This document shows, one piece after another, positions 18,028-64,000 of a stretch of 64,000 nucleotides of DNA. A model generated the notes under the pieces. It searched no databases. It had not been told where the DNA came from and worked only from the letters and a program-made list of their open reading frames with translations. Source of the stretch: Escherichia virus TH57; sequence record MT446422.1. One strand, 5' to 3'. Positions within the stretch are counted from its first letter, which is position 1, and each line of letters opens with the position of its first letter. The position numbers and the translations under genes are program-made.

Positions 18028-18270
18028 ATGGAAACATTAATTGCGGGTACTGTTGTTCTGGGTGCTGGCTCTTTCTTCCTGGCTGCACTGGCATATTTTC
18101 TGCCGTGGATTATCGCACTACTGCGAGGAACCAAAAGTAATTGCGGAATCTTCTTTGTTAACCTCCTGTTAGGTTGGACAATGGTCGGATGGTTTATTGC
18201 ATTTATCTGGGCACTCGTTGCTGAGCGTAAATCAAACGCACAAGTAATTATCATCAAGGAAACCAAATGA
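18028..18270 (+). CDS. imm: Superinfection immunity protein Imm
   Basis: 80 aa, two TM segments. YFLPWIIALLRG...NLLLGWTMVGWFIAFIWAL fits the Imm_superinfect family signature. Directly downstream of 43, as T4 imm. Confidence 0.75.
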   Translation: METLIAGTVVLGAGSFFLAALAYFLPWIIALLRGTKSNCGIFFVNLLLGWTMVGWFIAFIWALVAERKSNAQVIIIKETK

Positions 18271-31166: not shown

Positions 31167-31463
31167 ATGTACTACGCATATGTGCTGGTCCACAAAGATA
31201 AAGATGGTTTTGAACACCCATTGGAGTATGATGGAAAGGTGACCTTATACACCACAAAAGCTGGCGCAGATTATGAACTTGCCAACTATTCATATACTAC
31301 AAACCGCTATTTACGCATGGGACGTATTGAAACACGGTATATTCCCAGGAAGTGGTGGTTTGATAAGCGTGAAACAAAAACTGTTTTTCCTACTGAAGAA
31401 CGCGCACGAGAATTGAAATTAGTTTTAGATACTTTATATGTTAAGCGAGTAAAATTGGCATGA
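31167..31463 (+). CDS. hypothetical protein (98 aa), position of T4 dda.1
   Basis: ATG 31167 behind AGAGG (the track gives GTG 31164). ATGA overlap with dda. Confidence 0.55.
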   Translation: MYYAYVLVHKDKDGFEHPLEYDGKVTLYTTKAGADYELANYSYTTNRYLRMGRIETRYIPRKWWFDKRETKTVFPTEERARELKLVLDTLYVKRVKLA

Positions 31464-32788
31464 TTAAATTTGAAGACTTGAACACAGGACAAAAAGAAGC
31501 TTTTGATTATATCACTGAAGCTATTCAGCGACGTTCAGGGGAATGTATCACTCTGAATGGCCCAGCTGGCACAGGTAAGACCACTCTGACAAAATTTGTC
31601 ATTGACCACTTAGTGCGTAATGGAGTTATGGGAATTGTGCTCGCTGCACCAACTCACCAGGCGAAAAAAGTTTTATCTAAATTGTCTGGTCAAACAGCGA
31701 ATACAATCCATAGTATCCTGAAGATTAACCCGACCACATATGAAGACCAAAACGTTTTTGAACAGCGCGAAATGCCTGACATGTCAAAATGTAATGTTCT
31801 GGTTTGTGATGAAGCAAGTATGTATGACGGGTCTCTGTTTAAGATTATTCTTAACTCTGTTCCCGAATGGTGTACTATTCTTGGGATTGGTGATATGCAC
31901 CAGCTGCAGCCAGTTGACCCAGGAAGCACACAACAAAAGATAAGCCCATTCTTTACGCATCCTAAGTTCAAACAGATTCATCTGACTGAGGTCATGCGAA
32001 GTAATGCTCCTATCATTGAAGTGGCGACAGAAATTCGCAATGGTGGTTGGTTCCGTGACTGCATGTATGAAGGCCATGGCGTGCAAGGTTTCACCTCACA
32101 AACCGCTTTAAAGGATTTCATGATAAACTATTTCAGTATTGTAAAAGATGCTGATATGTTGATGGAAAACAGGATGTATGCATACACGAATAAATCAGTT
32201 GAAAAACTGAACAATATTATTCGTCGCAAGCTATATGAAACGGACAAAGCATTTTTACCGTATGAAGTCCTGGTTATGCAAGAGCCACACATGAAAGAGC
32301 TGGAATTTGAAGGTAAGAAATTCAGCGAAATTATTTTTAACAATGGTCAGTTAGTTCGCATCAAGGATTGCAAATACACTTCCACCATTCTCCGCTGTAA
32401 AGGCGAATCGCACCAGTTAGTGATTAATTACTGGGACCTGGAAGTTGAGTCAATTGATGAAGATGAAGAATATCAGGTTGACCGCATTAAAGTTTTACCA
32501 GAAGACCAGCAACCAAAATTCCAGGCATATCTGGCGAAAGTTGCTGACACATACAAACAGATGAAAGCCGCTGGTAAACGTCCAGAGTGGAAAGACTTCT
32601 GGAAAGCGCGCAGGACCTTCTTGAAAGTTCGTGCTCTTCCGGTCAGTACAATCCATAAGGCACAGGGCGTTTCAGTGGACAAAGCATTCATCTATACTCC
32701 ATGCATCCATATGGCCGAAGCTTCATTAGCGAGCCAGTTGGCTTATGTAGGAATCACACGAGCGAGGTACGACGCATATTATGTATAA
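31460..32788 (+). CDS. dda: Dda DNA helicase (SF1B)
   Basis: 442 aa. Walker A GPAGTGKTT, VCDEASM, TIHKAQG, YVGITRAR. Confidence 0.95.
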   Translation: MIKFEDLNTGQKEAFDYITEAIQRRSGECITLNGPAGTGKTTLTKFVIDHLVRNGVMGIVLAAPTHQAKKVLSKLSGQTANTIHSILKINPTTYEDQNVFEQREMPDMSKCNVLVCDEASMYDGSLFKIILNSVPEWCTILGIGDMHQLQPVDPGSTQQKISPFFTHPKFKQIHLTEVMRSNAPIIEVATEIRNGGWFRDCMYEGHGVQGFTSQTALKDFMINYFSIVKDADMLMENRMYAYTNKSVEKLNNIIRRKLYETDKAFLPYEVLVMQEPHMKELEFEGKKFSEIIFNNGQLVRIKDCKYTSTILRCKGESHQLVINYWDLEVESIDEDEEYQVDRIKVLPEDQQPKFQAYLAKVADTYKQMKAAGKRPEWKDFWKARRTFLKVRALPVSTIHKAQGVSVDKAFIYTPCIHMAEASLASQLAYVGITRARYDAYYV

Positions 32789-41335: not shown

Positions 41336-41336
41336 T

Positions 41337-47706: not shown

Positions 47707-47718
47707 TTTTAAAAAGTA

Positions 47719-47748: not shown

Positions 47749-47797
47749 GATTCCATACTGAGTTACACACTGAATCATAAAAATTTTGGAGAATAAA

Positions 47798-48013: not shown

Positions 48014-48015
48014 TT

Positions 48016-48624: not shown

Positions 48625-48634
48625 GGAAATTGTT

Positions 48635-48811: not shown

Positions 48812-48813
48812 TC

Positions 48814-49146
48814 ATGAATAAGCTGAATATTGTTAATGAATTGCGTGCTTGCGTAGAACCTACTCAAGAGGGTTGGGATGTTTGGTATCATGGCGCTTAC
48901 CTTGGGACTATTGTCAAGGTCAAAGCTGGTCAGTATCTTATTCACCGCCAGGATGATGCAACAGCACCGTTTGGCGTCCGCAAGAACTTCATGGCAGCGA
49001 TTGGCGCCTTTGTTCCAGCAGCATATGAAGTCTATAAAGCTGACTATAAGGAATACCAGGAATCACAACCAGTTATTCGCTCAATTGGTGTCAATAAAGC
49101 TCAACAGAAAAGTCTGTGGCAACGTGTTAAAGGTTGGTTCAAATGA
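48814..49146 (+). CDS. hypothetical protein (110 aa)
   Basis: ORF track. GAGAGG SD. Confidence 0.55.
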   Translation: MNKLNIVNELRACVEPTQEGWDVWYHGAYLGTIVKVKAGQYLIHRQDDATAPFGVRKNFMAAIGAFVPAAYEVYKADYKEYQESQPVIRSIGVNKAQQKSLWQRVKGWFK

Positions 49147-49481
49147 TTCCTATGGAGCTAAATTGGGATGGCGAAGGTCATTCCCTTAAATTGATTGAAG
49201 AGCAACGTAACGCTTGGGATGAGCGTTGTGCCCTGGTGAATGGTATTAAGGTAATTTATAACCTTCATCTCCAAATTGATAATATTCCTCTTGAGTTTGG
49301 TATGCAGTTATCACGTTTTCTTGAGATTATTACTATAGAAAAAGTATCCATAACTTCATTTGGTGTATGTCAAACAGTTGATATCAAATTGGCTTCTTCT
49401 GATAAAGGCGAGTTGATTGGTATTGGTGATAAAATTCATGAATTCGTGAAATATAATGGTTATAAGGTGATTATCAAATGA
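49143..49481 (+). CDS. hypothetical protein (112 aa)
   Basis: ATG 49143 (ATGA overlap). The track start is 49134. Confidence 0.5.
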
Positions 49482-49966
49482 ATCCATTAAAAGGTAAAGA
49501 ATTATCTTTTAAAGACCGTATGGCTTTATTGGATAAAGCTCTTTCTCGTGAGACACCTGAAAGTCTAGCGGCTAAATTACAGGCATCCGGTGACTATACA
49601 GAATATACAGAAGAAGATGTTTTAGAAGAAGTCCCAGAAATCTGTTGGCAGATTGCTCATTGGAACAACAATGAAAAATATCAGCGACGAATTGTATGCG
49701 CTGCCAACCGCTTTAGATTAAAAGATGGCGGGACTTTGGTTATTCCTGGCGCCAGACATTATTCAAAAGATATGGCAGAAGTGCTTGACCAGGTAAGTGA
49801 TAAACTTGTATCAGACCATGTTTGTGGTGATAATCAAGGATTCATTGACCAATACAGCAATTACTGGACCCGTGAAGAAGCAATGATTATTGCGACTTAT
49901 GCAAATCAAGTGCGTATTGAACGTGGTGGTAGTGAAAAAGAACTTTACTCTGAGGACCTTTACTAA
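49478..49966 (+). CDS. hypothetical protein (162 aa)
   Basis: ORF track. ATGA overlap. Confidence 0.6.
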
Positions 49967-50247
49967 TGAATCTTAAACAACTCCAGATTGATGCAATCGA
50001 AGCCCATATTAACCATATTAAACGTCTGAATGTTATGCTGGAAGACAACTGGGGAACTTATGTCAACCAACCGGCCTGGGATGCATTAGACCATGAATAT
50101 ATAAAGAATATTAGTTCCAAGACAATTCATGGAAATATGGAAGGCCTAAAGCCATTCTTGCGTGATATGTATATTGCTACTAATAAAGAAATTATTGGCT
50201 CTTTGGAATATCAATTAAGGAAATTGCATGAACAATCTGGTAGCTAA
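49966..50247 (+). CDS. hypothetical protein (93 aa)
   Basis: ORF track. TAATG overlap. Confidence 0.55.
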   Translation: MNLKQLQIDAIEAHINHIKRLNVMLEDNWGTYVNQPAWDALDHEYIKNISSKTIHGNMEGLKPFLRDMYIATNKEIIGSLEYQLRKLHEQSGS

Positions 50248-50347
50248 ACACGATTTCAATAAGGCATCTGTCCATAAGGACAAGAAGAAAAATTTTAAAG
50301 AGTCCAATCGCAAACAGAAACATAAGGGTAAAGGCTATGATTACTAA
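50228..50347 (+). CDS. small very basic peptide (39 aa)
   Basis: Below the track cutoff. MNNLVAKHDFNKASVHKDKKKNFKESNRKQKHKGKGYDY. Overlaps both neighbours. Confidence 0.35.
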   Translation: MNNLVAKHDFNKASVHKDKKKNFKESNRKQKHKGKGYDY

Positions 50348-50627
50348 ACTCCATACATATCAAGCAACTGAATTGGTTATTCTTATTGATGAGCTTTTTA
50401 AAATCCATGCTTCAGTTCCAGCCGAAATCTATGCAGAAATTCTTTGTGATTTGGATAGCAGCTTTGGCTATATTCAACCGGAATATACAATTAGATTCTC
50501 TAGTGAACGACCTGGCTACGCTAAAGTGGTTTTTGGTCCTGGATTAGATGAAGAACAAGTATTAAGAGAAATTCAAGAAGAAATTGATGATTTTGGTTTA
50601 GAAGATTACATCGAGGAATCACTATGA
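50337..50627 (+). CDS. arn: acidic protein (96 aa); positional candidate for Arn (anti-McrBC DNA mimic)
   Basis: Strongly acidic (EEQVLREIQEEIDDFGLEDYIEESL). Size near T4 Arn (92 aa) and located between motA and asiA. Sequence identity not verified. Confidence 0.4.
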   Translation: MITKLHTYQATELVILIDELFKIHASVPAEIYAEILCDLDSSFGYIQPEYTIRFSSERPGYAKVVFGPGLDEEQVLREIQEEIDDFGLEDYIEESL

Positions 50628-50788
50628 GTCATAACTTAGAGAACACCATCACTGGCCAACGTACACACGAATCGACTTGCTTTGATGAATTCCTGGGAGC
50701 CGATTTTAAGTTCCAGGAACCAGTTGAACAGATGTATCAGGAATATGTTGTACAGATGGAAAATCATGTGTACAACCCAGAGGAATAA
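50624..50788 (+). CDS. small hypothetical protein (54 aa), position of T4 asiA.1
   Basis: Below the track cutoff. ATGA overlap. MSHNLENTITGQRTHESTCFDEFLGADFKFQEPVEQMYQEYVVQMENHVYNPEE. Confidence 0.45.
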   Translation: MSHNLENTITGQRTHESTCFDEFLGADFKFQEPVEQMYQEYVVQMENHVYNPEE

Positions 50789-50797
50789 TAGTACAAT
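50768..50797 (+). promoter_or_regulatory. early promoter (asiA)
   Basis: GTGTACA 50768-50774, 17-nt spacer, TACAAT 50792-50797. Confidence 0.5.
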
Positions 50798-50846
50798 ATC
50801 CTTACTGAATAATTGAATGTCTTATTGAATACTTGAGTAAATTAAA

Positions 50847-51122
50847 ATGACTAAATTTGAAATTGTTTCTGAAATTGTTACTATAACTTCAATTTTGATT
50901 AAAACCGACCGGGAAGATATTACGATGAAGCGTGATGTGTTTATCGCGTTTTTGAATGAGTTGGGATTAAGGAATGAGAATGGTAATGAGTTAAACAATG
51001 TATCGTTTAACAAGTTGTTTAAAAGTTTATCTGAAGATGAAATTGAACAAATCATTGAACAATTTAACGAAGGATTCGAAGATATACACCGATATCTGAT
51101 GATGTATACCTCCGGATTCTAA
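50847..51122 (+). CDS. asiA: Anti-sigma-70 factor AsiA
   Basis: 91 aa. EIVTITSILIKTDREDI...FIAFLNELG...IIEQFNEGFEDIHRYLMMYT parallels recalled T4 AsiA (EIITVASILIKFSREDI...FIAFLNEIG...LIDEFNEGFEGVYRYLEMYT). Confidence 0.92.
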   Translation: MTKFEIVSEIVTITSILIKTDREDITMKRDVFIAFLNELGLRNENGNELNNVSFNKLFKSLSEDEIEQIIEQFNEGFEDIHRYLMMYTSGF

Positions 51123-51772
51123 CGTGTACGCCCGAGCGTACGACCTGCTTGCCCACACATAGCAGAAAGCCTATCAAAACTAAGGTCGGGTTTTTGCTTA
51201 TACCAGTACAGCGAGACTGTACCTGCATAAACGTTTTCCAAATTAAAGAATGGGCAGCTGAACATATATTCGAAGCTGCTTTTTTTCTTTGTTGGTAAGA
51301 ATACAGATTCCGTGCCGGATTCAAAATAATTACCATTAACCCCCGCCAAATATTCCGCTGAAGTTTTATCTATTGGAAACCCACCCAAGTTTTTTTCGTC
51401 GACTGTATCAGGTAATATCCCCTCATAACCCACCATATCCACGAAGTAGTTAAGGTTAGTTGGTCTAAAAGAATATATTGCTGTAAAGTCTGCCCCACTT
51501 GATGAGTGAACTATCTGGATTTGCTCGATAGCTGCAATTTTAAATCTGTTATCCTGGTCTTGCCTTATCATTTCTGTGTACGAGGCATATGAAGCATCCC
51601 TATACGCATCTAAAATTGCATCACCTTTATACCAGATTACCGCCATTAAAAATAATAGAACAATAACTAGTACCCGGGAAAAAACAACTTTCCCGGTTGC
51701 ATTATCTTTAAAAATTCTATCAAGAAGTCCAAAAAGTAGGTCGGGTATTGAGATTCCTACTTTTGGTTCCAT
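51119..51772 (-). CDS. t: Holin T
   Basis: 217 aa. DLLFGLLDRIFKDNATGKV, one TM segment, YSFRPTNLNYFVD, YMFSCPFFNLENVYAGT match recalled T4 holin. TATAAATA lies 18 nt upstream. Confidence 0.95.
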   Translation of the reverse strand: MEPKVGISIPDLLFGLLDRIFKDNATGKVVFSRVLVIVLLFLMAVIWYKGDAILDAYRDASYASYTEMIRQDQDNRFKIAAIEQIQIVHSSSGADFTAIYSFRPTNLNYFVDMVGYEGILPDTVDEKNLGGFPIDKTSAEYLAGVNGNYFESGTESVFLPTKKKSSFEYMFSCPFFNLENVYAGTVSLYWYKQKPDLSFDRLSAMCGQAGRTLGRTR

Positions 51773-51790
51773 ACTTTTCTCCTTTAAAGA

Positions 51791-51798
51791 TATTTATA
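51791..51798 (-). promoter_or_regulatory. late promoter (holin t)
   Basis: The + strand reads TATTTATA, so TATAAATA on the - strand, 18 nt before the t start. Confidence 0.75.
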
Positions 51799-51812
51799 AT
51801 GCTTTTGCGTTA

Positions 51813-52358
51813 TTATTTTTTAAACAATCCTTTGAAGAATGATTTTTTCTCTTTCTCTGGCCAAGCCGGGAATTCACCACCAAGGTGTTCGTGTTTTTCT
51901 AAAAGAGCAAAGAAACGTTTAAGATTCTGGTGATAGAATTTTTCTTTCTTATCGGCGACTGAGGCTTCAACCATATTACTTAATACCTGGAATTCTTTAT
52001 ACAAATCGTCAATTTTTCGATTACGAATTAAAACGCGTTTATAGGTTTCGTCTTCTTTCCAGCCATCGTCGGTCCACACATCAAATTCACCAGGCTCGTC
52101 AAAAGATATACCGACTGGGCTTCCTATGTCATTTATTAAGATTTCTTCTTTATTAAAAGTCCATGCACGTTTGCCTCGATGGTCTTCTTCATAAATCCAA
52201 TCTTGAACGCGTTCATCAAATACAACGGCGAAACCTTCTTTAGGTTCCAATGGTTCCTTTGTGGTTGAGTGAGCCGGGAGACCAAGACCTTTAATGGGTT
52301 TATAATTTTCTTCTTTGTAAAATTCTTTTGTGTCAAAATAAAAATGATAAATTTTCAT
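51813..52358 (-). CDS. 38: Tail-fibre assembly chaperone gp38 (T4 type)
   Basis: MKIYHFYFDTKEFYKEENYKPIKGLGLPAHST... is near-identical to recalled T4 gp38 (183 aa). ATG at 52358 (the track adds 2 codons from a TTG). Confidence 0.93.
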   Translation of the reverse strand: MKIYHFYFDTKEFYKEENYKPIKGLGLPAHSTTKEPLEPKEGFAVVFDERVQDWIYEEDHRGKRAWTFNKEEILINDIGSPVGISFDEPGEFDVWTDDGWKEDETYKRVLIRNRKIDDLYKEFQVLSNMVEASVADKKEKFYHQNLKRFFALLEKHEHLGGEFPAWPEKEKKSFFKGLFKK

Positions 52359-52362
52359 ATTC

Positions 52363-52380
52363 AAAAGGGGCCGAAGCCCC
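52363..52380 (-). terminator. hairpin/attenuator between genes 37 and 38
   Basis: On the - strand: GGGGC-TTCG-GCCCC then TTTT, 4 nt before the gene 38 ATG. Confidence 0.5.
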
Positions 52381-52386
52381 CTCTCC

Positions 52387-55300
52387 TTATGCTAAACGAA
52401 CGATATAGTTAAAAGCAATGTTTTTAACCGTGTTTTCTGTATTACCTGTACTATTTACAGTGATAGTATGACCGTGCGAACCAATTGCTACCGAGTGGGT
52501 ATGAGCACCAATACCTACAGTATGTGTATGGGCACCAATACCTACAGTATGCGCGTGGTTACCTGTGGTACTTGTGGTTCCTGACCAAGAGTGGGTATGA
52601 GCACCATCATTTGATGTTTTACCAATAGAGCTACTAATACCGATAACACTGGTTGAATTAAATCCAGTCATACCAGACGAGGCAGATACTGAATTAACAC
52701 CGTCTGGAAATAACCCGTTTGGATTATTTCCACTCGAATATCTAGGACCTGAACGAGCGTGCTGGTGAGCACCGGCTGAACTGGTAGTACCACTTACTGT
52801 ATGGTTATGGTTGCCAGTAGTATTACTGGTTTTAGTACCATAGTCAAAACTTGAAGAGGTCTTAGTGCCATAATCAAAGCTTGATGTAGTTTTAGTACCT
52901 AAATCAGTATTAGATGCTGAAGCACTATGGTTATGAGCCTTAACACCATCAGCTTCGGCACTCAACACCGCACGTCCACTTGGTTTACCTTTAATAGTCT
53001 GCCCGCGCATATCCGGAATAGTACCTGTAGGATATGCAACAGCAAGCTTAGGATAAGCACCTGTATCAAAGGTCTGACCTTCCATCAAAGCAAATCCAGC
53101 AGGAACTGAATCACTTGGCCACGGAATCGGAGCGCCAACAGGATAAGGTATCTGAGCATCGGAGTACATCATATACACTTGTCCACGCAGATGACCGGTA
53201 GGTAATTCTGTCACAGGTGTTTGATATCCACCATTAAGTCCAATTACCGAAATATAACGGGTATTTTCCGTGGCGTCATATTCAACTATAAGTTTGTCTG
53301 CATAAGTCCCGGCATACAGATAAACATCATAATCATCACCGGAGGTATTAATTGTTGCTATATTAGTAAATCCATTACCCGTGCGCCCCCATAAGGTAGC
53401 GTTAATACCTTTAGGATTGTCATTACTGGTACGAAGAACTACTTCAGTAATTGTAGCCTGTTCCGGTGAATTTACATTGTATCCATTACCACCTATAATC
53501 TTAAATTGAGCAGTTGATACCGACTGTGGCATAGTTACAGTAGCAAATTTATACCAACCTGCAGTTGAACTACCAGACCAAGTGCCAACATTAACTTTAC
53601 GGTCTAAAGTAGTGTTCAGGTTTTTAAAGTTTTCTAATGCAGTGCTGCCTGTAATATTACCGTCAGGACCAATACGAACATCGGAACCAATTTTAAGTGC
53701 CTTGGTTATATCAACAGTATCAGAGTTTAATGCAATACCATGGGAGTAGGTATAGTTATGTAAACGAACAACGTTGCCGCCGTCGCCGATACCGAGATAC
53801 CATTTTGTAACATCTGCTTTACGACCCTGGATAAAGTTGGATGACGCCTGAGAAGAAGCATTTACCACAATGGCGTCGGAATCCATATTAACACGCAATC
53901 TACAGTCGGTCTGAACAAATTTACTTACGTTGTCTACTGTAAAAAGTGGACCGCCTGTAGAAGTTTTATTACCCATTATAACCGTGCCATTAGCCAAATT
54001 AATGGAAAGCGGGCGAAGGTCGCTTATTCCACCGTTTTCACCGGCATTCTGAAGAGTAGGAATAAGATGGAATGAAGCAGAAGAACCTGTTTCTGAACGA
54101 CGGAAAATCATACCATATTCAGCGTTCCAAATTCTTAATGCATCTGCGGTACCGCCCATTTTAACTTGGCCGTTAATTGAGGCCCCACCTTGGACAAACA
54201 AACCGTTAGACATAGTAACATTGCCACCAAAAGAACCCTTACCTGAAGCGGTAATATCACCAAGACCAACGATATGACCTGTTTCAACAGTTCCATTAAA
54301 CTTAAAGTTGACAGGGCCAACACCATCTGCAACGGCAGGGTTTGTACGTTGGGCATAAAAATAATAACCTTGTGAATCTGAAACTTCCCATACTGTTTCA
54401 CGATTACCTTTTTCGGCGTTAAATGAGTTACCCCATGCCTTAATTGTAACTGTATTTTTGTTCTGGCCATTTCGGGTACCAGCGTCCCAGTTAATTGTTT
54501 TAGTACCATCTACACCGGAAGGAGCTTTAAATGATAATGCATTGGTATTGTCATCACCGTTTAAAAATAAACCAGTACGCATAGAAATGCGATTGGTAGA
54601 GTCAAATGTACCATCTGCTCTAATAGCAACTCTATTGGACCCGGTTTTAACATCTAAAATACCTGGCTCAACAAGAAGCCCGTCGCCCATACTAACAGAC
54701 ATACGACCTTGGCCACGGAAATAGTGATACATCTTTGCATTGCTGCTATAACCGATATGAGTCTGACCATCACCATTATTATTACCGTCGACATCAGTGC
54801 GCGCGGTAAACATTGCCTGATTGCTATTAGGGAAATCCCATGTAGTACCAGAATCACGGCTATAACCAACCATCAATTTCTTAGTGCTGTTAATACCGTT
54901 GTTCAAAACGGTAGCAGATGAAATACCGTTGGCCATCAGGTCATAAACGCCATCACGAACCCATTTAATACCGGTGTCATTATCACCAATTGCAATACCG
55001 ATAGAAATGGCAGAATCTAAAGGATAGCGTCCATTTGTACCATTATCCGGAAGACCTACAGAAATTGATTTACCCGCAGTAATACGTCCGGAGTTATCAA
55101 ACGCCCATTGGAAAGATGAAGGACCCACACCAGTCCACCAAGAAATTTCTTGTGGTTTACCTTTGCGACAATCAGCAATTTCATGGAAAATACTTGATGC
55201 ACTTGATGCACGCAATTTACGCAAATAGTTTAAACCATTAGTAGTATCATCAGAACCATCGGCAGGCGGGTTATAAACCCAAGTAGGTAAAGAAACCCAG

Positions 55301-55947
55301 TCGTATCCTATATTTGCATTAGCTACAAATGATTTTGTACTGAAATTAATATTTTTGGTAACAATTTCAGGACCGGTGATAATACCATTAGCCGAATTTA
55401 TGTTGCCTGATGCAGAAATATTACCTGCTGATACCATTAAACTACCGGTATCAACTTGAAAATTACCATTACGATTAAAGGTCCAATATTTTGAATCACC
55501 AGCTTCATTAATATAGTGGAATTTAAAACTACCTTCCGAAACTAATGTGCCTGCTGAAAATGTTCCATCTTTAAAGCGTTGTTTAATCAGTGGGTTGTAT
55601 TCTGAAGTAGATGCAGCCGCACTTAAATCAGCAAAAATAGGAGCTTTGGCACTGTGCTGGCCTGCCCAAGAGCCACTACCTGTCGTACGATAGTTAAATT
55701 CTATATAACCACCAGAGGCAACAATTTCAGGACCGTTTAAATTCAGGGTCCCGTTAATAGTTACATTTCCATCAACCTGTCCACCCTTTGCAAAGCCTAA
55801 ATCAATAATCTGTCCTTGGTCTGACTTAGTAAAAATGGTACGGTCACGCAAGTTAATAGCCAGTTCACCTTCATCTAACTGGGCTGCAGTAGGCTTGGCT
55901 CCTGCTATTTTACTTCTTTTAAATTGTATCGATTTTAAAGTAGCCAT
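52387..55947 (-). CDS. 37: Long tail fibre distal subunit gp37 (receptor-recognising)
   Basis: 1186 aa. N-terminus [17 protein letters not shown]-terminal HxH iron-binding repeats ([36 protein letters not shown]) and [16 protein letters not shown] end, as recalled for T4 gp37 (1026 aa). Confidence 0.96.
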
Positions 55948-55955
55948 AATGCCTC

Positions 55956-56615
55956 TTAATAATATCCAAAATCTTCAGATGTGCCTCTAAGAACAACCTG
56001 GTCGATACGAGGAACGTGTTCGTTCAATGTACCTGGGTTCCTAGATATGAAATTCGGGGCTGAAAGAACGCCAGCCATAGATTGTATGCTACTATTATTT
56101 ATTTGGACCTGTTTTGCGTTATCCACATCACTTAATCCAACTTGTGCTTTTGACGGAGTATTCCCTGGAGAAAACACTCGACCTGATTCGTCTTTAATTT
56201 GACGACCAAGGATATCACCCATTACAGTAAGACGGTTTGCACCTACAACAGTAGTCGGGTCGAAAATTACAAACGGTGTTCCATCCGATGTCTCAAGACC
56301 CAGACCTTTGCTCATTCTAAATGAGAAAGAATATGTAGCAGACATTGGGGATGTATTGGTTTTTCTACCCAATTTAACCCAATACCCATCGGAATCTTTA
56401 AATTGTAAGTCTTTATCAAAGTTTACTGTACTTAAATAATTCCCACCATTAGCTTTAGAAACAAAGTCGTTATCTGCTGCTTGCGGTTTATTGAATTCTG
56501 TATATACTTTATATGTTTTGTAAAATAAATCATTGCTTACTGGCGTCAACGGAAAGTTGCCCTGGTGCCAGATAACTGAGCCCCCAGTCGTTGAGCCTAC
56601 TCTTAAATCGGCCAT
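55956..56615 (-). CDS. 36: Long tail fibre distal connector gp36
   Basis: 219 aa. [23 protein letters not shown]...DFGYY matches recalled T4 gp36 termini. Confidence 0.93.
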
Positions 56616-56640
56616 AATATTCCCCTTTATTAGATAAGAG

Positions 56641-56648
56641 TATTTATA
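56641..56648 (-). promoter_or_regulatory. late promoter (genes 36-37-38)
   Basis: TATAAATA on the - strand, 25 nt before the gene 36 start. Confidence 0.8.
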
Positions 56649-56651
56649 ATG

Positions 56652-56671
56652 AAAAAAGGACCCGAAGGTCC
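56652..56671 (-). terminator. rho-independent terminator after gene 35
   Basis: On the - strand: GGACC-TTCG-GGTCC plus T6. Confidence 0.75.
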
Positions 56672-57808
56672 TTATTCTTTTTCACGGAATTCTGCAGCAA
56701 ATACAAATCCAGATTGACTGGACCTTGTTGCATTTTTATCATTCAATTGTGCAATGACATTACCAAGATTTCCCGGTTCTCCAGCTACAACCATTCTTAT
56801 GCCGTTGACACCGATTTCTGCAGATTTAGCTTGTGTTTCTTGTCGAGCGATTTCTGTAAAGAAAATATTCCTTACTCCACCTTGCCCTGCAGCAGCGGTC
56901 TTCCTTGCGTACAGTGTAAATCCATCGGCATTCGGTGGAACAACTACATAACGTTCAAACGTCATCCATGCACCAGCCGGTGGGCTTGCTTGACCCGTAG
57001 CAGGAATATCATAATCGTTTGACTGAATCATAGTCTGTCCATTAAAGAATCGAACAGACATCTGAGTTGTTCCAAGGTCTTTAAGTGCCTGGTCATATGT
57101 CAGTTGAAACTTCAGGTAAAAAGTATCACCCGGAGCCATATTATAATCGGCCGCAGGAGTGATGGGAGAGTCTGTGGGGAAACGTTTTATTTCTTGTGTA
57201 CTATTACTGTAATATGTGTTTTCGTCTTCCACGACGCGCAGAGGGAATCCTGTGCCGCCCACATCAGCAAAGTCGTCATACACCATTTCCAATGGAGTCA
57301 ATACATCCTCAACAGTTACCCCGTCATTATACAACACATGCTCTTTAACGATTGCATTTCGACCAGTTATATAAAAAGCCGAATACGAAGTATCAACTTG
57401 GTCAATCAACCACTTATCCGGAAATGCAGTCGAGCCGTGTGTTCTGAACCAATCAATTAAAGTTTGAGAAGCATTCAATTTCCCCTGTGATATCAAACAA
57501 ACAATCCTACCCGCTGGAATGGAATTAATATAAGTCACAAATGCCTGTGAAATGACATCATAGTCTTTTGTGAAGCCATAGTTTTTAGTTGCAGTGATTG
57601 TATTTGTTACTGGGTCAATCTCAATAAGGTTTAATCCATTTTGGAAGTTCTGAGGCCCGAAGGCCTCATCTTGAAACTTAACGTAGGGATAGTTTGGCGA
57701 TTTGGTACAAGTCCCTGCAATCGACAATTTATATCTTACTGCGTTATTTTCAGAAAGCACGGGAACTTGGACATATCCCTGTCCAAATTCTGCCATCAAT
57801 CTTTCCAT
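56672..57808 (-). CDS. 35: Long tail fibre hinge protein gp35
   Basis: 378 aa. MERLMAEFGQGYVQ... and GVNGIR... match recalled T4 gp35. Confidence 0.92.
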   Translation of the reverse strand: MERLMAEFGQGYVQVPVLSENNAVRYKLSIAGTCTKSPNYPYVKFQDEAFGPQNFQNGLNLIEIDPVTNTITATKNYGFTKDYDVISQAFVTYINSIPAGRIVCLISQGKLNASQTLIDWFRTHGSTAFPDKWLIDQVDTSYSAFYITGRNAIVKEHVLYNDGVTVEDVLTPLEMVYDDFADVGGTGFPLRVVEDENTYYSNSTQEIKRFPTDSPITPAADYNMAPGDTFYLKFQLTYDQALKDLGTTQMSVRFFNGQTMIQSNDYDIPATGQASPPAGAWMTFERYVVVPPNADGFTLYARKTAAAGQGGVRNIFFTEIARQETQAKSAEIGVNGIRMVVAGEPGNLGNVIAQLNDKNATRSSQSGFVFAAEFREKE

Positions 57809-57816
57809 AATACCTC

Positions 57817-60800
57817 TTATGGTGTATCAATCCATTCGAATTTAACGGATTTGGTTACTGGGTCCGGAACAATACGTACATTACCGATTCTTAACCAATC
57901 TCTGATAGTCAGGTTACTCATCGATGCATTATCAGAAGGCAATGCACCGATATCCGAAGGCTGAGGAGGGTTACCACCATCAAATACCTGAACAAAACCT
58001 GACCATGCGTTTTTGTTCTGCTGCCATGTACGAGTCCAGCGAGTAGTGCTTCCATCTGCTGTGTTTGGATAGGTAATCCAATCCTGGTAAAGTGAATTCA
58101 GCGTGTTACCAAACTGGGTCAAAGTACCCGGAGACTTAACTTCTTCACCACGAACCAGATAAGGCAGACCAGTTACTTCGTTGGTCTTTTCAACCATTTT
58201 GAAATAACCTGGGAACTGATTATATGTGGCTGAATCGTTAATGTCGATAGACCAAAAACCTGCATTATCCATTGTAGGTTTTCTGCTATAGATGTCAGAA
58301 GTCTTATCTCCTGTAACCCTTGCATATTTCTGAACAGCTAAGCCGTTGTTAAGTGTAGCTTTGTTGCTTACCGTAAGGAAGTTGTTAATAGTAACAGCGC
58401 CTTCGAATCTAGATTCACTATTAGCAACTAGCCCTGTGGTTGTGATACCAGAAGCTTTAGTAACACTAAGACCGCCGTTAATTATAGCAGACCCATTACC
58501 AAGAACAAAATTACCTGCAGTTATTTCTAAATCACCATTCCGTCTAAAGGTCCATTTGCGCTGGGGTTTTACCGAATCTATATAATGAAGAATAAAAGCA
58601 CCTTCATCATTTGAGGTGGGTTCATTTATCAATGTGCCAAAGGTAAATGTCCCATCTTTATAACGTTGCTTAATTAAAGGAACGTATCTAGATGAGCCAG
58701 ACGGAGTAGTTATATTTAAAAATACAGGAGCTTTAACATTACTATCGTGTTGAGAGTTCCAAGTACCCGAGCCTTGAGATTCTGAAGTGAACTCAATGTA
58801 ATTCAGAGCACCTACTGTAGAATTGCTATTGATTGTAGTAGCACCAGTTAATGTGGTATTATTTGAAGTAACAGAACCACTCAAATTAACTACGCCAGTA
58901 ACTGTCAAAGTACTTTCAATTCTTACAGGCTGTTTAAATGTCATAGTAGCGTTAATATCCTGGGCTACATCACGACGAATAAACTGGGTTGAATCCAGGT
59001 TGTCCAATTTATCAGAGTCTACCGCTTTAGCCAAACGCGGCAGGAAGTTACCAAGGGTTTTGTTTAACTCATACGGAGAGATAGCATAGCTATTTTTCTC
59101 GTACAGGTCAAGAGCCTGAGTAGAACCTGCAGTTGCATTACCGACAAAAGTAATTGCGCCTTCAGACATCTTAGCAAAGCCGCGGGTCGTCGTGGTTGCT
59201 GCCCATGTTGGTTCGGACTGCGCAATCCATTTCAGACTAACAGGAGAAACAGCCAGAACAGAACTTGTTCCTGCGATAGTTTCTGCACGAGTAGCGATGC
59301 GAACAATACCTTCGGTGTCTTCTGTAGCTTTTTTCGACATCAACTTAAGCGGAGTAACGATAGTTTTATCATCAGTACCCGTGTTTACTTCCAACTGAGT
59401 AGCCAGTCTTGCGGTGCCACGTTGAGTCTCATTTGCTTCAAGAATATTCAGCGTATAATGGTCCCAGAGCGTCCCTGTTTCTACTAAACCACTTGCTGCA
59501 ATAACAGAAGTACGAGCAGTATTATTAAATCTAGTTTTAATTTTTAATGGCGTTGCAATACGAGTATCATCTGTACCAGTATCAAATTCTGATTGCGTAG
59601 CAATCTCGGCTATGCCGGATAATGATTCTGTTGCTTTACGGTCATTCAACGTTTTAGGAGTTACAGCTCTGGTATAATCAGTACCGGCATTAGTTTCAAC
59701 CTGAGTTGCAATCTCGATTAAACCGTGGTTTGAATCTGTTGCTCTGCGGGCACCTAATGTTTCAGGAGTCACGACCGAGTTACTGAATCCTATATTTGTT
59801 GCACCAGCGTTAACTTCTGACTGAGTTGCTAGATATACAGCACCTTGGTTATTCTGGTCAGCTTTATATTGGTCTAAAGCTTTAGGAGAAATAACTAAAT
59901 TAGTTGTATTTTTGTTATAAACGTTGGTACCAACAGTTATACGGCTTGCCGCTGGAGTAGTCCCGGTAGTAGGAACATACTTAACGATACCAGATAGGCT
60001 TTCTGAGCCCTGACGAGCTTGTAGCTTACGCGGAGTGATGATGGTAGTATCATCAGTGCCTGCATCAGTTTCTTGTTGTGTGGCGATTTCTGCAAGCCCA
60101 CGTCTTGTTTCTGTGGCTGTACGTTCGTTTAACTTTTTCGGAGAGACGATGATGTCGTCCTGGAAAGCAAAAGTCGTATCCTGATTCACCTGGGCAGTGT
60201 TAGCAATTCGCGCAATACCACGACGTGATTCAGTGGCCACACGGTTAGCTAAAGTCTGCGGGGTAATCGCTAATTCTTTTTCAGGGTTATTTTCATGGTC
60301 AACGTTAGCCTGAGCCTGGTTGGCCAGTGCAATAACACCCAAACGAGCACGAGTCAAATCATCTTTCGAGTCAACACGTTCAACAGTCGGAACGTTCTGA
60401 GCAACAACCCAGTAGTTAATGTTATTATCTGTATCTTCAAGATAACTTAATTCGATAACCGGAGTATAGCTTATATTGCCATTGAAAGTCAGAGAGTCAA
60501 CCAGTACCCATTCAGTATCAGGTGGATATTCCGAACGTTTCGGGAACTGAAGCAGTTGAACAGAAGACGCGATTTTATCAGTAGCCGAAGCTTTAATATT
60601 AACAGTCTGTGCCTTGCGAAGATAGTTCAGAGCAATCTTAACTACGTCCCCAGAACGAACCCCCGTCGGAAGGTCGATGTTAATTGTCTGTGAAGTGTTG
60701 TTATCATTACCAAACACGATGATACTTTCATTTGGCAGCAATTTCACACTGTCACGAATTACGCGCAAGCGAGTTTTATTATCACCGTCCCAGGGTACCC

Positions 60801-61692
60801 ACAGTTTTTCAGTGGCATTATAAACGAAGAAACCATCACCAGTAGTACGGAATTCCATACTGTGCTGGCCCTGTTTACCCAGAGAGCTTGACTCGTCAAA
60901 CGTTTCAACATCCAGGTGGTATAATGGCCCTAATCCATCTATATCTACTGATTTGACAATATCGCCTTGGTTAGCATACTTAGGAAGAATAAATGTAATT
61001 TTTTCTGCAGTCGTATAATGACGCATAATAAAATCTGATGCTTGAGTTCGATATTTACCAGAGCTTGGTTCAATTCTTATTCCGCGTTCTTCGTTACCTG
61101 CTTCCCAGAACTGCCATAAACGGTTAGAGAAAATAAGCATATTATAAGAGAACGGCTTACTGATTAATACTTCAGTAAATTGGTTACCGAAACGGACAAT
61201 CTTTTGGTTACCTTGACCAGGCACATTGCTCGATTGAACTTTGATTTCATTATAACCGGTATTACCGCCGATATCTTTAATAACGATGGTATCACCATCA
61301 GTCGGGTTCGGAGGCAATGTAAATGTGGTAAAGCTTGCAGCTGAGTCGACTGCGATAAATTCCCCGGAGCGAAGCTGACGAGTTGGTGATGCAACAGTTT
61401 CCCATTTCGGGTCAGTACGGGTTGCGGTCCAATATTGCTGAACAAACGGGCCAGCTGGTTCTGCGATTTCACGTTGGGAAACCCAAATACGGTTATCATA
61501 GATAACTGCAAAATCTTTCTTATATCCGCGTGTTGCATCATATTGTTGAATTGTGTTTTCTTCTATAAAGAAGTCTACGTTTACGCCGTCTGACAAAACT
61601 GAGAAATCAGCTTTCGCGACATTAATGACTTTCTCACCAGCAGCATCGAGACCGGATGTTGCTCTGAATGCTGGTTTTAAAATATCGGCCAT
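57817..61692 (-). CDS. 34: Long tail fibre proximal subunit gp34
   Basis: 1291 aa (T4 1289 aa). Repeated ~40-aa motif ATExxxG(I/L)xxxATxxExxxGTDDxxxxTPxxL. TATAAATA upstream. Confidence 0.95.
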   Translation of the reverse strand: MADILKPAFRATSGLDAAGEKVINVAKADFSVLSDGVNVDFFIEENTIQQYDATRGYKKDFAVIYDNRIWVSQREIAEPAGPFVQQYWTATRTDPKWETVASPTRQLRSGEFIAVDSAASFTTFTLPPNPTDGDTIVIKDIGGNTGYNEIKVQSSNVPGQGNQKIVRFGNQFTEVLISKPFSYNMLIFSNRLWQFWEAGNEERGIRIEPSSGKYRTQASDFIMRHYTTAEKITFILPKYANQGDIVKSVDIDGLGPLYHLDVETFDESSSLGKQGQHSMEFRTTGDGFFVYNATEKLWVPWDGDNKTRLRVIRDSVKLLPNESIIVFGNDNNTSQTINIDLPTGVRSGDVVKIALNYLRKAQTVNIKASATDKIASSVQLLQFPKRSEYPPDTEWVLVDSLTFNGNISYTPVIELSYLEDTDNNINYWVVAQNVPTVERVDSKDDLTRARLGVIALANQAQANVDHENNPEKELAITPQTLANRVATESRRGIARIANTAQVNQDTTFAFQDDIIVSPKKLNERTATETRRGLAEIATQQETDAGTDDTTIITPRKLQARQGSESLSGIVKYVPTTGTTPAASRITVGTNVYNKNTTNLVISPKALDQYKADQNNQGAVYLATQSEVNAGATNIGFSNSVVTPETLGARRATDSNHGLIEIATQVETNAGTDYTRAVTPKTLNDRKATESLSGIAEIATQSEFDTGTDDTRIATPLKIKTRFNNTARTSVIAASGLVETGTLWDHYTLNILEANETQRGTARLATQLEVNTGTDDKTIVTPLKLMSKKATEDTEGIVRIATRAETIAGTSSVLAVSPVSLKWIAQSEPTWAATTTTRGFAKMSEGAITFVGNATAGSTQALDLYEKNSYAISPYELNKTLGNFLPRLAKAVDSDKLDNLDSTQFIRRDVAQDINATMTFKQPVRIESTLTVTGVVNLSGSVTSNNTTLTGATTINSNSTVGALNYIEFTSESQGSGTWNSQHDSNVKAPVFLNITTPSGSSRYVPLIKQRYKDGTFTFGTLINEPTSNDEGAFILHYIDSVKPQRKWTFRRNGDLEITAGNFVLGNGSAIINGGLSVTKASGITTTGLVANSESRFEGAVTINNFLTVSNKATLNNGLAVQKYARVTGDKTSDIYSRKPTMDNAGFWSIDINDSATYNQFPGYFKMVEKTNEVTGLPYLVRGEEVKSPGTLTQFGNTLNSLYQDWITYPNTADGSTTRWTRTWQQNKNAWSGFVQVFDGGNPPQPSDIGALPSDNASMSNLTIRDWLRIGNVRIVPDPVTKSVKFEWIDTP

Positions 61693-61722
61693 GTGCTTTA
61701 TCCTTATTGATTGGTATACGTG

Positions 61723-61730
61723 TATTTATA
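61723..61730 (-). promoter_or_regulatory. late promoter (gene 34)
   Basis: TATAAATA on the - strand, 30 nt before the gene 34 start. Confidence 0.8.
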
Positions 61731-61731
61731 T

Positions 61732-61756
61732 TGCTTTAAAAATTTTATGCTAATAT
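61732..61756 (+). promoter_or_regulatory. MotA-dependent middle promoter (rnh)
   Basis: TGCTTTA 61732-61738, 12-nt spacer, TAATAT 61751-61756. Back to back with the gene 34 late promoter. Confidence 0.6.
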
Positions 61757-61787
61757 AATCGAGTCAACTAATTGAACAGAGGTTCAT

Positions 61788-62732
61788 ATGAATTTAGATT
61801 TTTTACTCCCTGAAGAAGACCGTCAAAAAGATGGTTTTCTGTTACTCGATTTTAGCCAGCTTATCATGGCAGCAGCCTTCCAGGAATTCGGTAAAGACGC
61901 AGGCTTCCCTAAGGTGACAACCGCAATGACCAGACATCTGGTTCTGAACTCTATCAGAAAAAACATTGTACAGTTTAAAAAGCTCGGTTATACAATCCCA
62001 ATTATTTGTGTTGATAATTCAAAGAATGGTTATTGGCGCCGCACGAAATCTTATTATTATAAGAAAAACCGTGCAAAAGCCCGTGAAGAGTCACAATTTG
62101 ATTGGGAAGGCCTACATGCTGCCATGCACATCATCATTGATGAAATGGAAAAACACATGCCTTACATCGTGATGAATATGGATAAAATTGAGGCTGATGA
62201 CCATATTGCGGTATTAACGAAGTTGCTCACCGGTCTCGGGCATCCGGTTATGATTGTTTCTTCGGATGGTGACTTTACCCAGCTGCATAAATTCCCTGGG
62301 GTAAAACAATGGTCTCCGATGCAGAAAAAATATGTCAAAACCAAATCAGGCGATGCCCTTATGGATTGCGTGACCAAGGTTGTTAAAGGTGACAAAAAAG
62401 ATAACGTGTCGAGCATCAAAGTTCGTGGTGATTTTTATTACACTCATGAAGAAGGTGAACGTACTCCACCGACCCGCGCAGCTGAACTTGAACAAATTGC
62501 ACTCAACTATTACGACCATGACGTTTTGAAAACGCTTTTAACAGAAGAGCAATATAATAGATTCTGTGAAAACCAATTGTTGATTGATATGGACTTTATT
62601 CCAACGGAAATATCCGCTTCAATCTTAGAACGATATAATAACTACACTATCCCAGCCAAAAGTAAAGTTTATCCTTACTTTGTTAAGTCTGGTCTGTCTA
62701 AACTAACTGCAAATATTGCTGAATTTTATTAA
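61788..62732 (+). CDS. rnh: RNase H (5'-3' exonuclease / flap endonuclease)
   Basis: 314 aa. YWRR..YYYKKNR.KAREES.FDWEG, EADDHIAVL, SSDGDFTQLHK and GDKKDNV match recalled T4 RNase H. Confidence 0.95.
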   Translation: MNLDFLLPEEDRQKDGFLLLDFSQLIMAAAFQEFGKDAGFPKVTTAMTRHLVLNSIRKNIVQFKKLGYTIPIICVDNSKNGYWRRTKSYYYKKNRAKAREESQFDWEGLHAAMHIIIDEMEKHMPYIVMNMDKIEADDHIAVLTKLLTGLGHPVMIVSSDGDFTQLHKFPGVKQWSPMQKKYVKTKSGDALMDCVTKVVKGDKKDNVSSIKVRGDFYYTHEEGERTPPTRAAELEQIALNYYDHDVLKTLLTEEQYNRFCENQLLIDMDFIPTEISASILERYNNYTIPAKSKVYPYFVKSGLSKLTANIAEFY

Positions 62733-62740
62733 GGTATATT

Positions 62741-63010
62741 ATGAAAGAGAAAAAAGTGAAAGTTGAATTTTGTCCTGATACTCATGGCGCTGAACTGGCC
62801 AAGCTGATTAAAGCTGCTTCCGATACCAAATTAAAAATGGAAGCATATGCAGACGAAATTAAAGACCTTAAAGATAAGGCAAAAACTGAATTAGGCGTTG
62901 ACGGTAAGATGTTCAATACACAGCTCGGCCTGTATCATAAAGGCACTCGTGAACGTTTTGAAGATGAAAAAACCGAAGCTGTGGAGCTCTATGATGTCCT
63001 CTTTAGTTAA
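62741..63010 (+). CDS. dsbA: Double-stranded DNA-binding protein DsbA
   Basis: 89 aa, as in T4. ELGVDGKMFN...LYHK...VELYD matches recalled T4 DsbA. Confidence 0.88.
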   Translation: MKEKKVKVEFCPDTHGAELAKLIKAASDTKLKMEAYADEIKDLKDKAKTELGVDGKMFNTQLGLYHKGTRERFEDEKTEAVELYDVLFS

Positions 63011-63284
63011 TTTCGATACACAGAAAACTGAATCGCCTTCCGGGGCGATTAGTAAGCAGCAAAACGGGCTTGATATTGAAGCCATGGTTGAGTCAACTGA
63101 AATGTCTTATCTGGAAGCTGCGACTGCCTGGTTGGAAGAACGTGGAATTCCTGAAGGTAATTTTGCGCGATACATTCCTGCGGGAATCATTGATAAGATT
63201 ATGAACGAAGCCTATGATGATAACCTGCTTCGTCCGAGTATGTCTCGTACACAGAAAACTAATACGCTGGACTTTTTGTTATGA
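62991..63284 (+). CDS. 33: Late-transcription co-activator gp33
   Basis: MSYLEAATAWLEE...IPEG.FA.YIP.GII.KI...NLLRPS...KTNTLDFLL (clamp-binding tail) matches recalled T4 gp33. Start uncertain: ATG 62991 behind GGAG, with alternatives 62964 and 62898. Confidence 0.85.
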   Translation: MMSSLVNFDTQKTESPSGAISKQQNGLDIEAMVESTEMSYLEAATAWLEERGIPEGNFARYIPAGIIDKIMNEAYDDNLLRPSMSRTQKTNTLDFLL

Positions 63285-63948
63285 TTACGATTCGCATGCC
63301 TCCAAATAACAACCGATACATAAATGGTAAATCAGTATATCAACTGTACTTATCCATCAAACAGCATTTTTCGGGTCGTTATGATATTATCAAATATAAC
63401 TGGACCATGCGAATCTCCGATAGTGCTTATCAAAAACGTCGTGATAAGTATTTTTTCGAAAAGCTTAGTGATAAGTACACTCTCAAAGAATTAACGTTAA
63501 TATTCATGTCAAACCTGGTCGCGAACCAGGATGCATGGATAGGCGATATAAGTGATGCCGATGCTCTGATATTTTATAGGGAATACATCGGCAGACTTAA
63601 AAGAATTAGACAAGTATACGAAGATGATATAAAGAATATCTATTACTTCAGTAAGAAAGTCGAAGTCAAATCGCTTCAAGAGATTTTCGAGATAATACTA
63701 AAGTGAATACAAGTTATATTTTCAAACTTCTCCAATCGAATGTTATCTCATTTGAAACGTTTTGTTTGCTTGATTCATTTTTAGATATTATAAATAAACA
63801 TGATGAACAGACTAACGACTTGGTTTGGGAAAAGTATTCAACCAAACTAAATGCCTATAAGAAAATCTTAAATATCGATTCTCTTGAAGCTCGTAAATTG
63901 TTCATCGAGACCGTTAAAAACTGTCAAATAACGCTTCAAGCACTTTGA
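63281..63948 (+). pseudogene. 59: Helicase-loading protein gp59, reading frame interrupted by an apparent 1-nt deletion near 63692
   Basis: ORF 63281..63706 matches recalled T4 gp59 residues 1 to about 139 (IRMP...YINGKSVYQLYL...NLVANQDAWIGDISDADAL.FYREYIGRLK...YYFSKKVEV). It then ends EIFEIILK*. ORF 63703..63948, in another frame, continues with SYIFKLLQSNVISFETF...DKHDEQT. Inserting one T after GAG (63689-63691) restores EIFEYNTKVNTSYIF. Confidence 0.8.
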
Positions 63949-64000
63949 AGTATAATTAATACGTAATCAAAACAACTGCTAAAAATCAAATAATCTAAGG

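What the first reader, a model, noticed from the sequence alone, without database searches (positions are those of the whole stretch)
63281..63948. Gene 59 (helicase loader) is split by an apparent single-nucleotide deletion
Seen in sequence:
- ORF 63281..63706 matches what I recall of T4 gp59 up to ...KKVEV..(K/Q)EIFE, then reads IILK-stop.
- ORF 63703..63948, in a different frame, continues with ...SYIFKLLQSNVISFETF.LLDSFL.II.KHDEQT..LVW..Y..KL.AY.KILNIDS.
- Inserting one T after GAG 63689-63691 (GAG-TAT-AAT-ACT-AAA-GTG-AAT-ACA-AGT-TAT) restores EIFEYNTKVNTSYIF, close to the T4 sequence EIFEYNPKVQSSYIF.
- The site is not a homopolymer, and I see no X-XXY-YYZ slippery heptamer.

The possibilities are a sequencing error, a genuine gene 59 mutant (T4 59- mutants are viable with a DNA-arrest phenotype), or two separately translated halves. 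The second half has only a GTG start and no clear SD.
Basis: partly seen in the sequence, partly recalled or inferred. Interest (0 to 1): 0.5.

Follow-up and report, generated by a model that had tools for sequence, protein, structure and literature searches.

The report
Assembly error splits phage gene 59
The helicase-loader gene 59 of this T4-like phage looks broken by one missing T, but an independent assembly of what appears to be the same phage's reads has the T and an intact gene. The split is therefore almost certainly an error in the deposited genome, not biology.

Summary
Window 63281..63706 (141 aa) and 63703..63948 (81 aa) are the two pieces of a T4-type gene 59. The window lacks one T after GAG 63689-63691 that all seven close relatives compared at the DNA level have. 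Putting the T back gives a 222-aa protein identical to gp59 of phage P896.

The lesion does not appear to be a property of the phage. The window's genome is 171,230 bp long, which matches Escherichia phage TH57 (MT446422; Illumina MiSeq, 59x, Geneious de novo assembly). The Logan assembly of SRA run SRR11772948 matches 63,954 of the 64,000 window positions with no mismatch. It has a single gap, which is this T, and it calls gene 59 as one 222-aa CDS.

No other public sequence carries the deletion. No other conserved gene in the window is frameshifted. There is no slippery site, no significant RNA structure and no ribosome-binding site for the second piece. The break lies inside the C-terminal domain and removes two highly conserved residues.

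Verdict: a consensus error in the deposited record is most likely (about 0.85). A real deletion variant in the phage stock is the main alternative (about 0.1). The gene is an ordinary gp59 orthologue, so interest is low.

The parts
63281..63948 (+). Gene 59 (gp59, loader of the gp41 replicative helicase). It is 668 nt in this record, against 669 nt (222 aa) in relatives and in the independent assembly of the same phage.
   Evidence: Pfam T4_Gp59_N plus T4_Gp59_C. The repaired product matches PDB 1C1K, T4 gp59, at E = 3e-107. Synteny is rnh-dsbA-33-59-32 as in annotated Gaprivervirus genomes.
63281..63706 (+). Piece 1: gp59 codons 1-137, then four out-of-frame codons (IILK) and a TGA stop.
   Evidence: ORF list. 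tblastn with P896 and TH54 gp59 aligns residues 1-137 to 63281-63691 in frame 2 at 99-100% identity.
63691..63692 (+). Site of the missing T, between G63691 and A63692. Relatives read GAG TAT AAT; the record reads GAG ATA ATA.
   Evidence: Alignment A1. It is the only difference between the window and Logan contig SRR11772948_87 over 16,185 aligned columns.
63692..63948 (+). Piece 2 in the other frame: the remainder of gp59 (residues 138-222). The mechanical ORF starts at GTG 63703, which is Val142 of the intact protein and overlaps the TGA stop of piece 1 (GTGA).
   Evidence: ORF list. tblastn aligns residues 136-222 to 63685-63945 in frame 1 at 97.7% identity. Differences from P896 downstream of the break are 2 synonymous and 0 non-synonymous.

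Best explanation
The split is an error in the consensus of the deposited genome, not a feature of the phage. The window belongs to a Gaprivervirus (T4-like) whose genome length matches Escherichia phage TH57 (GenBank MT446422). That genome was assembled from about 59x Illumina MiSeq reads with the Geneious de novo assembler. One T was lost from the consensus inside gene 59 (GAG-TAT-AAT became GAG-ATA-AT). This shifts the frame after codon 137 and mechanically produces a 141-aa ORF and an 81-aa ORF. The phage itself most likely encodes a normal single-chain 222-aa gp59: an N-terminal HMG-like fork-binding domain and a C-terminal helical domain, which loads gp41 helicase onto gp32-coated DNA.

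Shown: the deletion exists in the record and is unique to it, and an independent assembly that is otherwise identical has the T. Inferred: SRR11772948 is the read set of TH57, and the loss happened during consensus calling rather than in a sub-population of the stock.
For: 1. Independent assembly of the same phage.
- The exact product of the repaired gene is encoded on Logan contig SRR11772948_87.
- The two Logan contigs of that run (_46 and _87) match window positions 1-47770 and 47817-64000, which is 63,954 of 64,000 positions. There are 0 mismatches and 1 gap, the T at 63691/63692.
- Every other public relative is at most about 98% identical over the same stretches.
- In that assembly gene 59 is called as one 222-aa CDS with both Pfam domains.

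2. Identity and method of the record.
- Both truncated products occur on one NCBI contig only, of 171,230 bp.
- Hinkley et al. 2020 list TH57 at 171,230 bp: MT446422, SRX8326096, MiSeq 2x250, 59.2x, Geneious Prime de novo assembler, plaque-purified three times (PMC7498436).

3. The deletion is unique.
- All seven relatives compared at DNA level have the T.
- The 14 other listed members of the 40-member 90% protein cluster are 217-222 aa and read EIFEYNTK(V/A)NTSYIF.
- A DNA pattern with the T made optional found only the T allele in viral contigs, and nothing in genome or metagenome contigs.
- Nearly all of the 120 listed homologue clusters are single-chain proteins of 205-222 aa with both domains, apart from six shorter forms of 175-193 aa. 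None is a fragment the size of either piece here.

4. No decay. The repaired product is 100% identical to P896 gp59, with 10 synonymous and 0 non-synonymous differences.

5. Biology argues against a null allele. gp59 is described as essential, with one of the strongest DNA-arrest phenotypes (PMC3016281).
Against: - The site is not a homopolymer, and Illumina consensus deletions at such sites are uncommon.
- The record is otherwise clean. Gene 59 is the only two-frame hit among 261 relative ORFs with hits in the window, and there is no other difference from the Logan assembly in the window. The assembly pipeline is therefore not generally error-prone.
- I could not see the reads or their allele counts.
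- The link from SRR11772948 to TH57 is inferred from sequence identity and the accession range. It was not looked up.
- Logan keeps one path through a bubble, so a mixed population with a substantial deletion fraction is not excluded.
Confidence: 0.85

Rival explanations
1. A genuine one-base deletion exists in the sequenced TH57 stock, either fixed or as a large sub-population. It gives a gp59 truncated after residue 137: an HMG-like N-domain plus the first helices of the C-domain, without most of the C-domain. The result would be a 59-defective, DNA-arrest-type phage that survives on leaky origin-dependent or Dda-assisted replication, or by complementation from wild-type genomes at high multiplicity.
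For: - The deletion is at a non-homopolymer site in an otherwise error-free 64 kb, which is not typical of Illumina artefacts.
- The stock went through three single-plaque bottlenecks, which can fix new mutations.
- In T4, gp41 can load without gp59, though slowly, and 59 mutants make some early DNA.
- Dda is intact in the window at 31460..32788.
Against: - The independent assembly of the matching read set contains the T and no other difference, so T-bearing reads are at least abundant.
- gp59 is called essential in T4.
- No degradation has accumulated: there are 0 non-synonymous changes against P896.
- No other record or metagenome has this allele.
Confidence: 0.1
2. This is a bona fide split gene. 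Piece 1 is translated normally and ribosomes re-initiate at GTG 63703, which overlaps the TGA stop (GTGA). The two chains then reassemble into a working loader.
For: - The stop and start overlap as GTGA, an arrangement that can support termination-reinitiation.
- In the AlphaFold model of the close homologue P0002 (pLDDT 88.6), the break falls in a non-helical stretch, residues 137-145, between helices 133-136 and 146-152.
Against: - No relative shares the split.
- The flanking DNA is the same as in intact genes, so nothing has adapted to a split.
- GTG 63703 is simply Val142 of the intact protein.
- There is no Shine-Dalgarno sequence beyond a GAG 11 nt upstream.
- The break is inside the C-domain, at Pfam T4_Gp59_C profile positions 24-33 of 109, not at the domain border.
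- The two chains together would lack residues 138-141, including invariant N139 and nearly invariant Y138.
- The phage's own reads give an unsplit gene.
Confidence: 0.02
3. Programmed recoding restores full-length gp59 from the shifted sequence, by -1 ribosomal frameshifting or by transcriptional slippage.
For: The two frames overlap over 63655-63706, so a -1 shift in that stretch would join them.
Against: - There is no X-XXY-YYZ heptamer in the overlap, and the longest run is TTTT.
- The downstream RNA fold is not significant, with z = -1.59 and 15 of 200 shuffles folding at least as well.
- The sequence context is identical to relatives that need no recoding.
- The split is not conserved anywhere.
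Confidence: 0.01

Closest known systems
Bacteriophage T4 gp59 helicase-loading protein (PDB 1C1K; Pfam PF08993 T4_Gp59_N plus PF08994 T4_Gp59_C)
   Same: The repaired product aligns over residues 1-216 at E = 3e-107, and T2/T6-type gp59 homologues are about 75% identical to it. It has both Pfam domains and sits between gene 33 and gene 32. The predicted fold is all-helical with two domains.
   Different: It is 222 aa rather than 217, with a slightly longer C-terminus (...NCQITLQAL). In the deposited record only, the reading frame is broken after codon 137.
gp59 of Gaprivervirus phages (P896, TH54, VR20, VR25, VR26, ECML-359, DCP80 and others)
   Same: The DNA is 96-98.4% identical over the gene 33-59 stretch searched. 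The repaired protein is 100% identical to P896 gp59. Gene order is the same.
   Different: All of them have the T and an uninterrupted 669-nt gene. In SP18/VR7-type phages the gene encodes a 217-aa protein instead.
T4 gene 59 amber mutants (DNA-arrest phenotype)
   Same: If the deletion were real, the product would be truncated as in a nonsense mutant. The expected phenotype would be arrested late, recombination-dependent replication.
   Different: Nothing shows that the phage carries the lesion, and the independent assembly has an intact gene. Suppression by uvsW (dar) mutations could not be examined because uvsW lies outside the window.

Membership tests
T4-type gp59 helicase loader | N-terminal domain PF08993 (T4_Gp59_N) | tested here: met
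   E = 6e-49, full profile 1-93, residues 14-106 of piece 1.
T4-type gp59 helicase loader | C-terminal domain PF08994 (T4_Gp59_C) on the same polypeptide | tested here: inconclusive
   In the record the domain is divided: profile positions 1-24 on piece 1 and 33-108 on piece 2. In the independent assembly of the same phage it lies on one 222-aa chain.
T4-type gp59 helicase loader | Sequence similarity to the solved T4 protein (1C1K) | tested here: met
   E = 3e-107 over residues 1-216 for the repaired product.
T4-type gp59 helicase loader | Conserved position between gene 33 and gene 32 | tested here: met
   Gene 33 overlaps the start of gene 59 (ATGA at 63281-63284). Gene 32 follows 60 nt downstream in the matching Logan contig. 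Gene 32 itself lies beyond the window.
T4-type gp59 helicase loader | Loads gp41 onto gp32-coated forks and binds forked DNA | not testable with these tools
   This is a biochemical property, inferred from orthology only.
Programmed -1 ribosomal frameshift site | Slippery heptamer X XXY YYZ in the overlap of the two frames | tested here: not met
   The codons of 63653-63706 were read directly and contain no such heptamer.
Programmed -1 ribosomal frameshift site | Stable stimulatory RNA structure downstream | tested here: not met
   Minimum free energy -24.5 kcal/mol, z = -1.59, with 15 of 200 shuffles folding as well.
Programmed -1 ribosomal frameshift site | Conservation of the two-frame arrangement in relatives | tested here: not met
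   All relatives are in a single frame.
Naturally split gene (two translated halves) | The split is shared by relatives, with both halves conserved | tested here: not met
   Each half occurs on one contig only. Only the T allele was found in pattern scans.
Naturally split gene (two translated halves) | The second half has its own start codon and ribosome-binding site | tested here: not met
   The only candidate is GTG 63703, which is Val142 of the intact protein. There is no in-frame ATG and no SD beyond a GAG 11 nt upstream.

The most novel reading that the evidence does not exclude
The deletion allele is real and abundant in the TH57 lysate, so a Gaprivervirus with gp59 cut after residue 137 propagates. 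This could happen because the fork-binding N-fragment and a re-initiated C-fragment (GTGA overlap) reassemble. It could also happen because gp59 is more dispensable in this genus than in T4, for example through Dda or gp59-independent gp41 loading.
Probability: 0.06. Interest if true: 0.35.

Novelty: not a real feature. Interest (0 to 1): 0.05.

Why it matters
The main value is as a data-quality flag. The deposited genome, apparently MT446422 (phage TH57), carries a one-base consensus error that turns a core replication gene into two fragments. Gene callers and protein databases have already taken up the 141-aa and 81-aa products as singletons. Correcting the record would remove two spurious proteins. 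If the deletion were real, it would be a natural gp59 truncation in a T4-like phage and a modestly interesting handle on how dispensable the helicase loader is. The evidence here points the other way.

Tried and rejected
- **General sequencing noise.** I ran tblastn with 285 ORFs of at least 70 aa from P896 and TH54 against the window, of which 261 gave hits. Gene 59 was the only two-frame hit. The 17 other flagged cases (internal stops) were antisense or off-frame ORFs, or over-extended starts such as P896 imm. The reverse test, window ORFs against P896 and TH54, gave no two-frame hit. The record is therefore not generally error-ridden.\n- **The window's own record.** Neither truncated product is on record for contig look-up. 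The window is absent from the phages, plasmids and E. coli collections.\n- **Exact look-ups that failed.** The gene 39 look-up failed because of a start-codon difference. One gp35 look-up failed because I gave wrong minus-strand coordinates. The rIIA look-up returned only an unrelated contig.\n- **Literature searches.** Searches for '171230 bp' and 'SRR11772948' found nothing. Three Gaprivervirus papers were checked for a 171,230-bp genome without success. The TH accession search then found the announcement paper.\n- **Papers not held.** Shah 1976 and Miller 2003 are not held, so burst-size data for 59 mutants were not obtained.\n- **Recoding and split-gene readings.** Both were examined and rejected.

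Full report
**What is in the sequence.** The window holds ORF 63281..63706 (+, ATG, 141 aa) and ORF 63703..63948 (+, GTG, 81 aa) in adjacent frames. Pfam assigns the whole T4_Gp59_N domain (E = 6e-49) and the first 24 profile positions of T4_Gp59_C to the first ORF. It assigns T4_Gp59_C profile positions 33-108 (E = 7e-29) to the second. The surroundings are a T4-like replication and tail-fibre block (rnh, dsbA, 33, 59) of a Gaprivervirus. The closest records are 96-98.4% identical over this stretch.

An alignment of 63620-63760 with four relatives shows one difference in length. The relatives read GAG(or GAA)-TAT-AAT, while the window reads GAG-ATA-AT, so one T is missing after 63691. Inserting it gives a 669-nt gene. 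Its 222-aa product is identical to gp59 of phage P896 and aligns to T4 gp59 (PDB 1C1K) at E = 3e-107, with the break after Glu137.

**Is it shared or unique?** All annotated relatives have one uninterrupted gene of 669 nt, or a 217-aa form where a homing endonuclease sits downstream. In the 90% identity cluster of 40 members, the 14 other listed sequences are 217-222 aa and read EIFEYNTK(V/A)NTSYIF. Each of the two truncated products is found on a single NCBI contig of 171,230 bp. A DNA pattern spanning the site with the T made optional matched only T-bearing alleles in viral contigs (VR20, VR25, VR26). It matched nothing in the genome or metagenome collections. Nearly all of the 120 listed homologue clusters are single chains of 205-222 aa with both domains, apart from six shorter forms of 175-193 aa. 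The split is private to this record.

**Is the record generally noisy?** No. ORFs of at least 70 aa from P896 and TH54 were compared with the window by tblastn, and 261 gave hits. Gene 59 was the only case of two adjacent hits in different frames. The other flagged cases were antisense or off-frame ORFs, or over-extended start calls. The reverse comparison found no frameshift in P896 or TH54.

**The decisive comparison.** The repaired protein was looked up by exact sequence and found on contig _87 (95,886 bp) of the Logan assembly of SRA run SRR11772948. Further look-ups with other window proteins retrieved the rest of that contig and contig _46 (53,732 bp) of the same run.

- Together these loci cover window 1-47770 and 47817-64000. 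The missing 46 nt are only a limit on how much flank could be fetched.
- They are identical to the window at every position, with exactly one gap: the T at 63691/63692.
- Other public relatives reach at most about 98% over the same stretches.
- In the Logan contig, gene 59 is called as one 222-aa CDS with both Pfam domains, followed 60 nt later by gene 32.
- A second run, SRR33738510, holds a nearly identical phage (one mismatch in 3.7 kb) that also has the T.

Its sister record TH54 is labelled UNVERIFIED and carries no annotation. MT446422 itself is not in the searchable phage collection. This explains why no 100% match appeared. That SRR11772948 is the TH57 run is an inference from identity and accession range.

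**Interpretation.** A read-based assembler cannot invent a base, so T-bearing reads exist and form the dominant path in that run. The simplest account is that the T was lost when the deposited consensus was made. Four things weigh against a real null allele:

- gp59 is described as essential in T4, with one of the strongest DNA-arrest phenotypes (PMC3016281);
- the downstream part shows no decay, with 0 non-synonymous differences from P896;
- the allele is absent from all other data;
- the window and the Logan assembly do not differ anywhere else.

On the other side, the site is not a homopolymer and the record is otherwise clean, so this error is not a typical Illumina artefact. I could not inspect read counts, so a mixed stock remains possible. 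I put the consensus error at about 0.85 and a real variant at about 0.1.

**Other readings.** A functional split gene is unlikely for several reasons.

- The break lies inside the C-terminal domain rather than at the domain border.
- The model places it in a non-helical stretch, residues 137-145, but the two chains would lack residues 138-141, including invariant N139 and nearly invariant Y138.
- The only possible start for the second piece is GTG 63703, which is Val142 of the intact protein. It has no real Shine-Dalgarno sequence, although it overlaps the stop as GTGA.
- The flanking DNA is the same as in intact relatives.

Programmed frameshifting is also unlikely. There is no slippery heptamer, the longest run is TTTT, and the downstream fold is not significant (z = -1.59).

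**Comparison with the known.** Once repaired, the gene is an ordinary member of the T4 gp59 family. It is a two-domain helical adapter that binds forked DNA and loads gp41 helicase onto gp32-covered DNA (PMC3012046, PMC3016280). Nothing about it is new.

**Verdict.** The biological interpretations are not supported. The 'sequencing error' option is supported in the specific form of a consensus error in the deposited assembly. Interest is low. The practical outcome is that the record should be corrected, and that the 141-aa and 81-aa proteins derived from it are spurious.

Noticed in passing
That accession is not in the searchable phage collection. The best hit there is 98.4% over the gene 33-59 stretch (TH40, TH54, ECML-359, P8) and 96.7% for TH54 over 25 kb.
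   Followed up: yes
downstream of 63948 (beyond the window); relatives H23-H33: SP18, VR7, RZ, DK-13 and related phages carry a segG-like homing endonuclease between genes 59 and 32. Those whose gp59 sequence was retrieved (SP18, VR7, RZ) have a different gp59 C-terminus (217 aa...VKGCKF instead of ...VKNCQITLQAL). This looks like a co-conversion tract. The Logan contig matching the window (L034) has gene 32 just 60 nt after gene 59 and no endonuclease.
   Followed up: partly
window 17983-18270 (imm): P896 annotates Imm with 15 extra N-terminal residues. The window has a stop codon in that leader and an 80-aa ORF at 18028..18270. This is most likely an over-extended start call in P896, not a lesion in the window.
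   Followed up: yes
L015 and L033 (Logan SRR33738510): A different SRA run, whose higher accession number suggests a later date, contains short contigs almost identical to the window: 0 mismatches in 1,159 nt and 1 mismatch in 2,555 nt. They also carry the T. Essentially the same phage has therefore been sampled again.
   Followed up: partly
window 47684-47816: The two Logan contigs of SRR11772948 meet at about 47748-47770. This is intergenic DNA just after a terminator-like hairpin (GGGCCCTTCGGGGTCC followed by a T run, 47684-47707). No local repeat explains the break in the assembly.
   Followed up: partly
L022 (Logan SRR25010926), homologous to window about 24700-42000: This relative carries a 496-aa GIY-YIG gene and a 252-aa Endonuclease_7-family gene that are absent from the window at the corresponding places (near gene 61 and upstream of gene 39). 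This is mobile-endonuclease polymorphism within the genus.
   Followed up: no
window 63949-64000: The A/T-rich stretch after gene 59 is the leader of gene 32. In T4 this leader holds the gp32 autoregulatory translational operator. The window ends before gene 32 starts.
   Followed up: no
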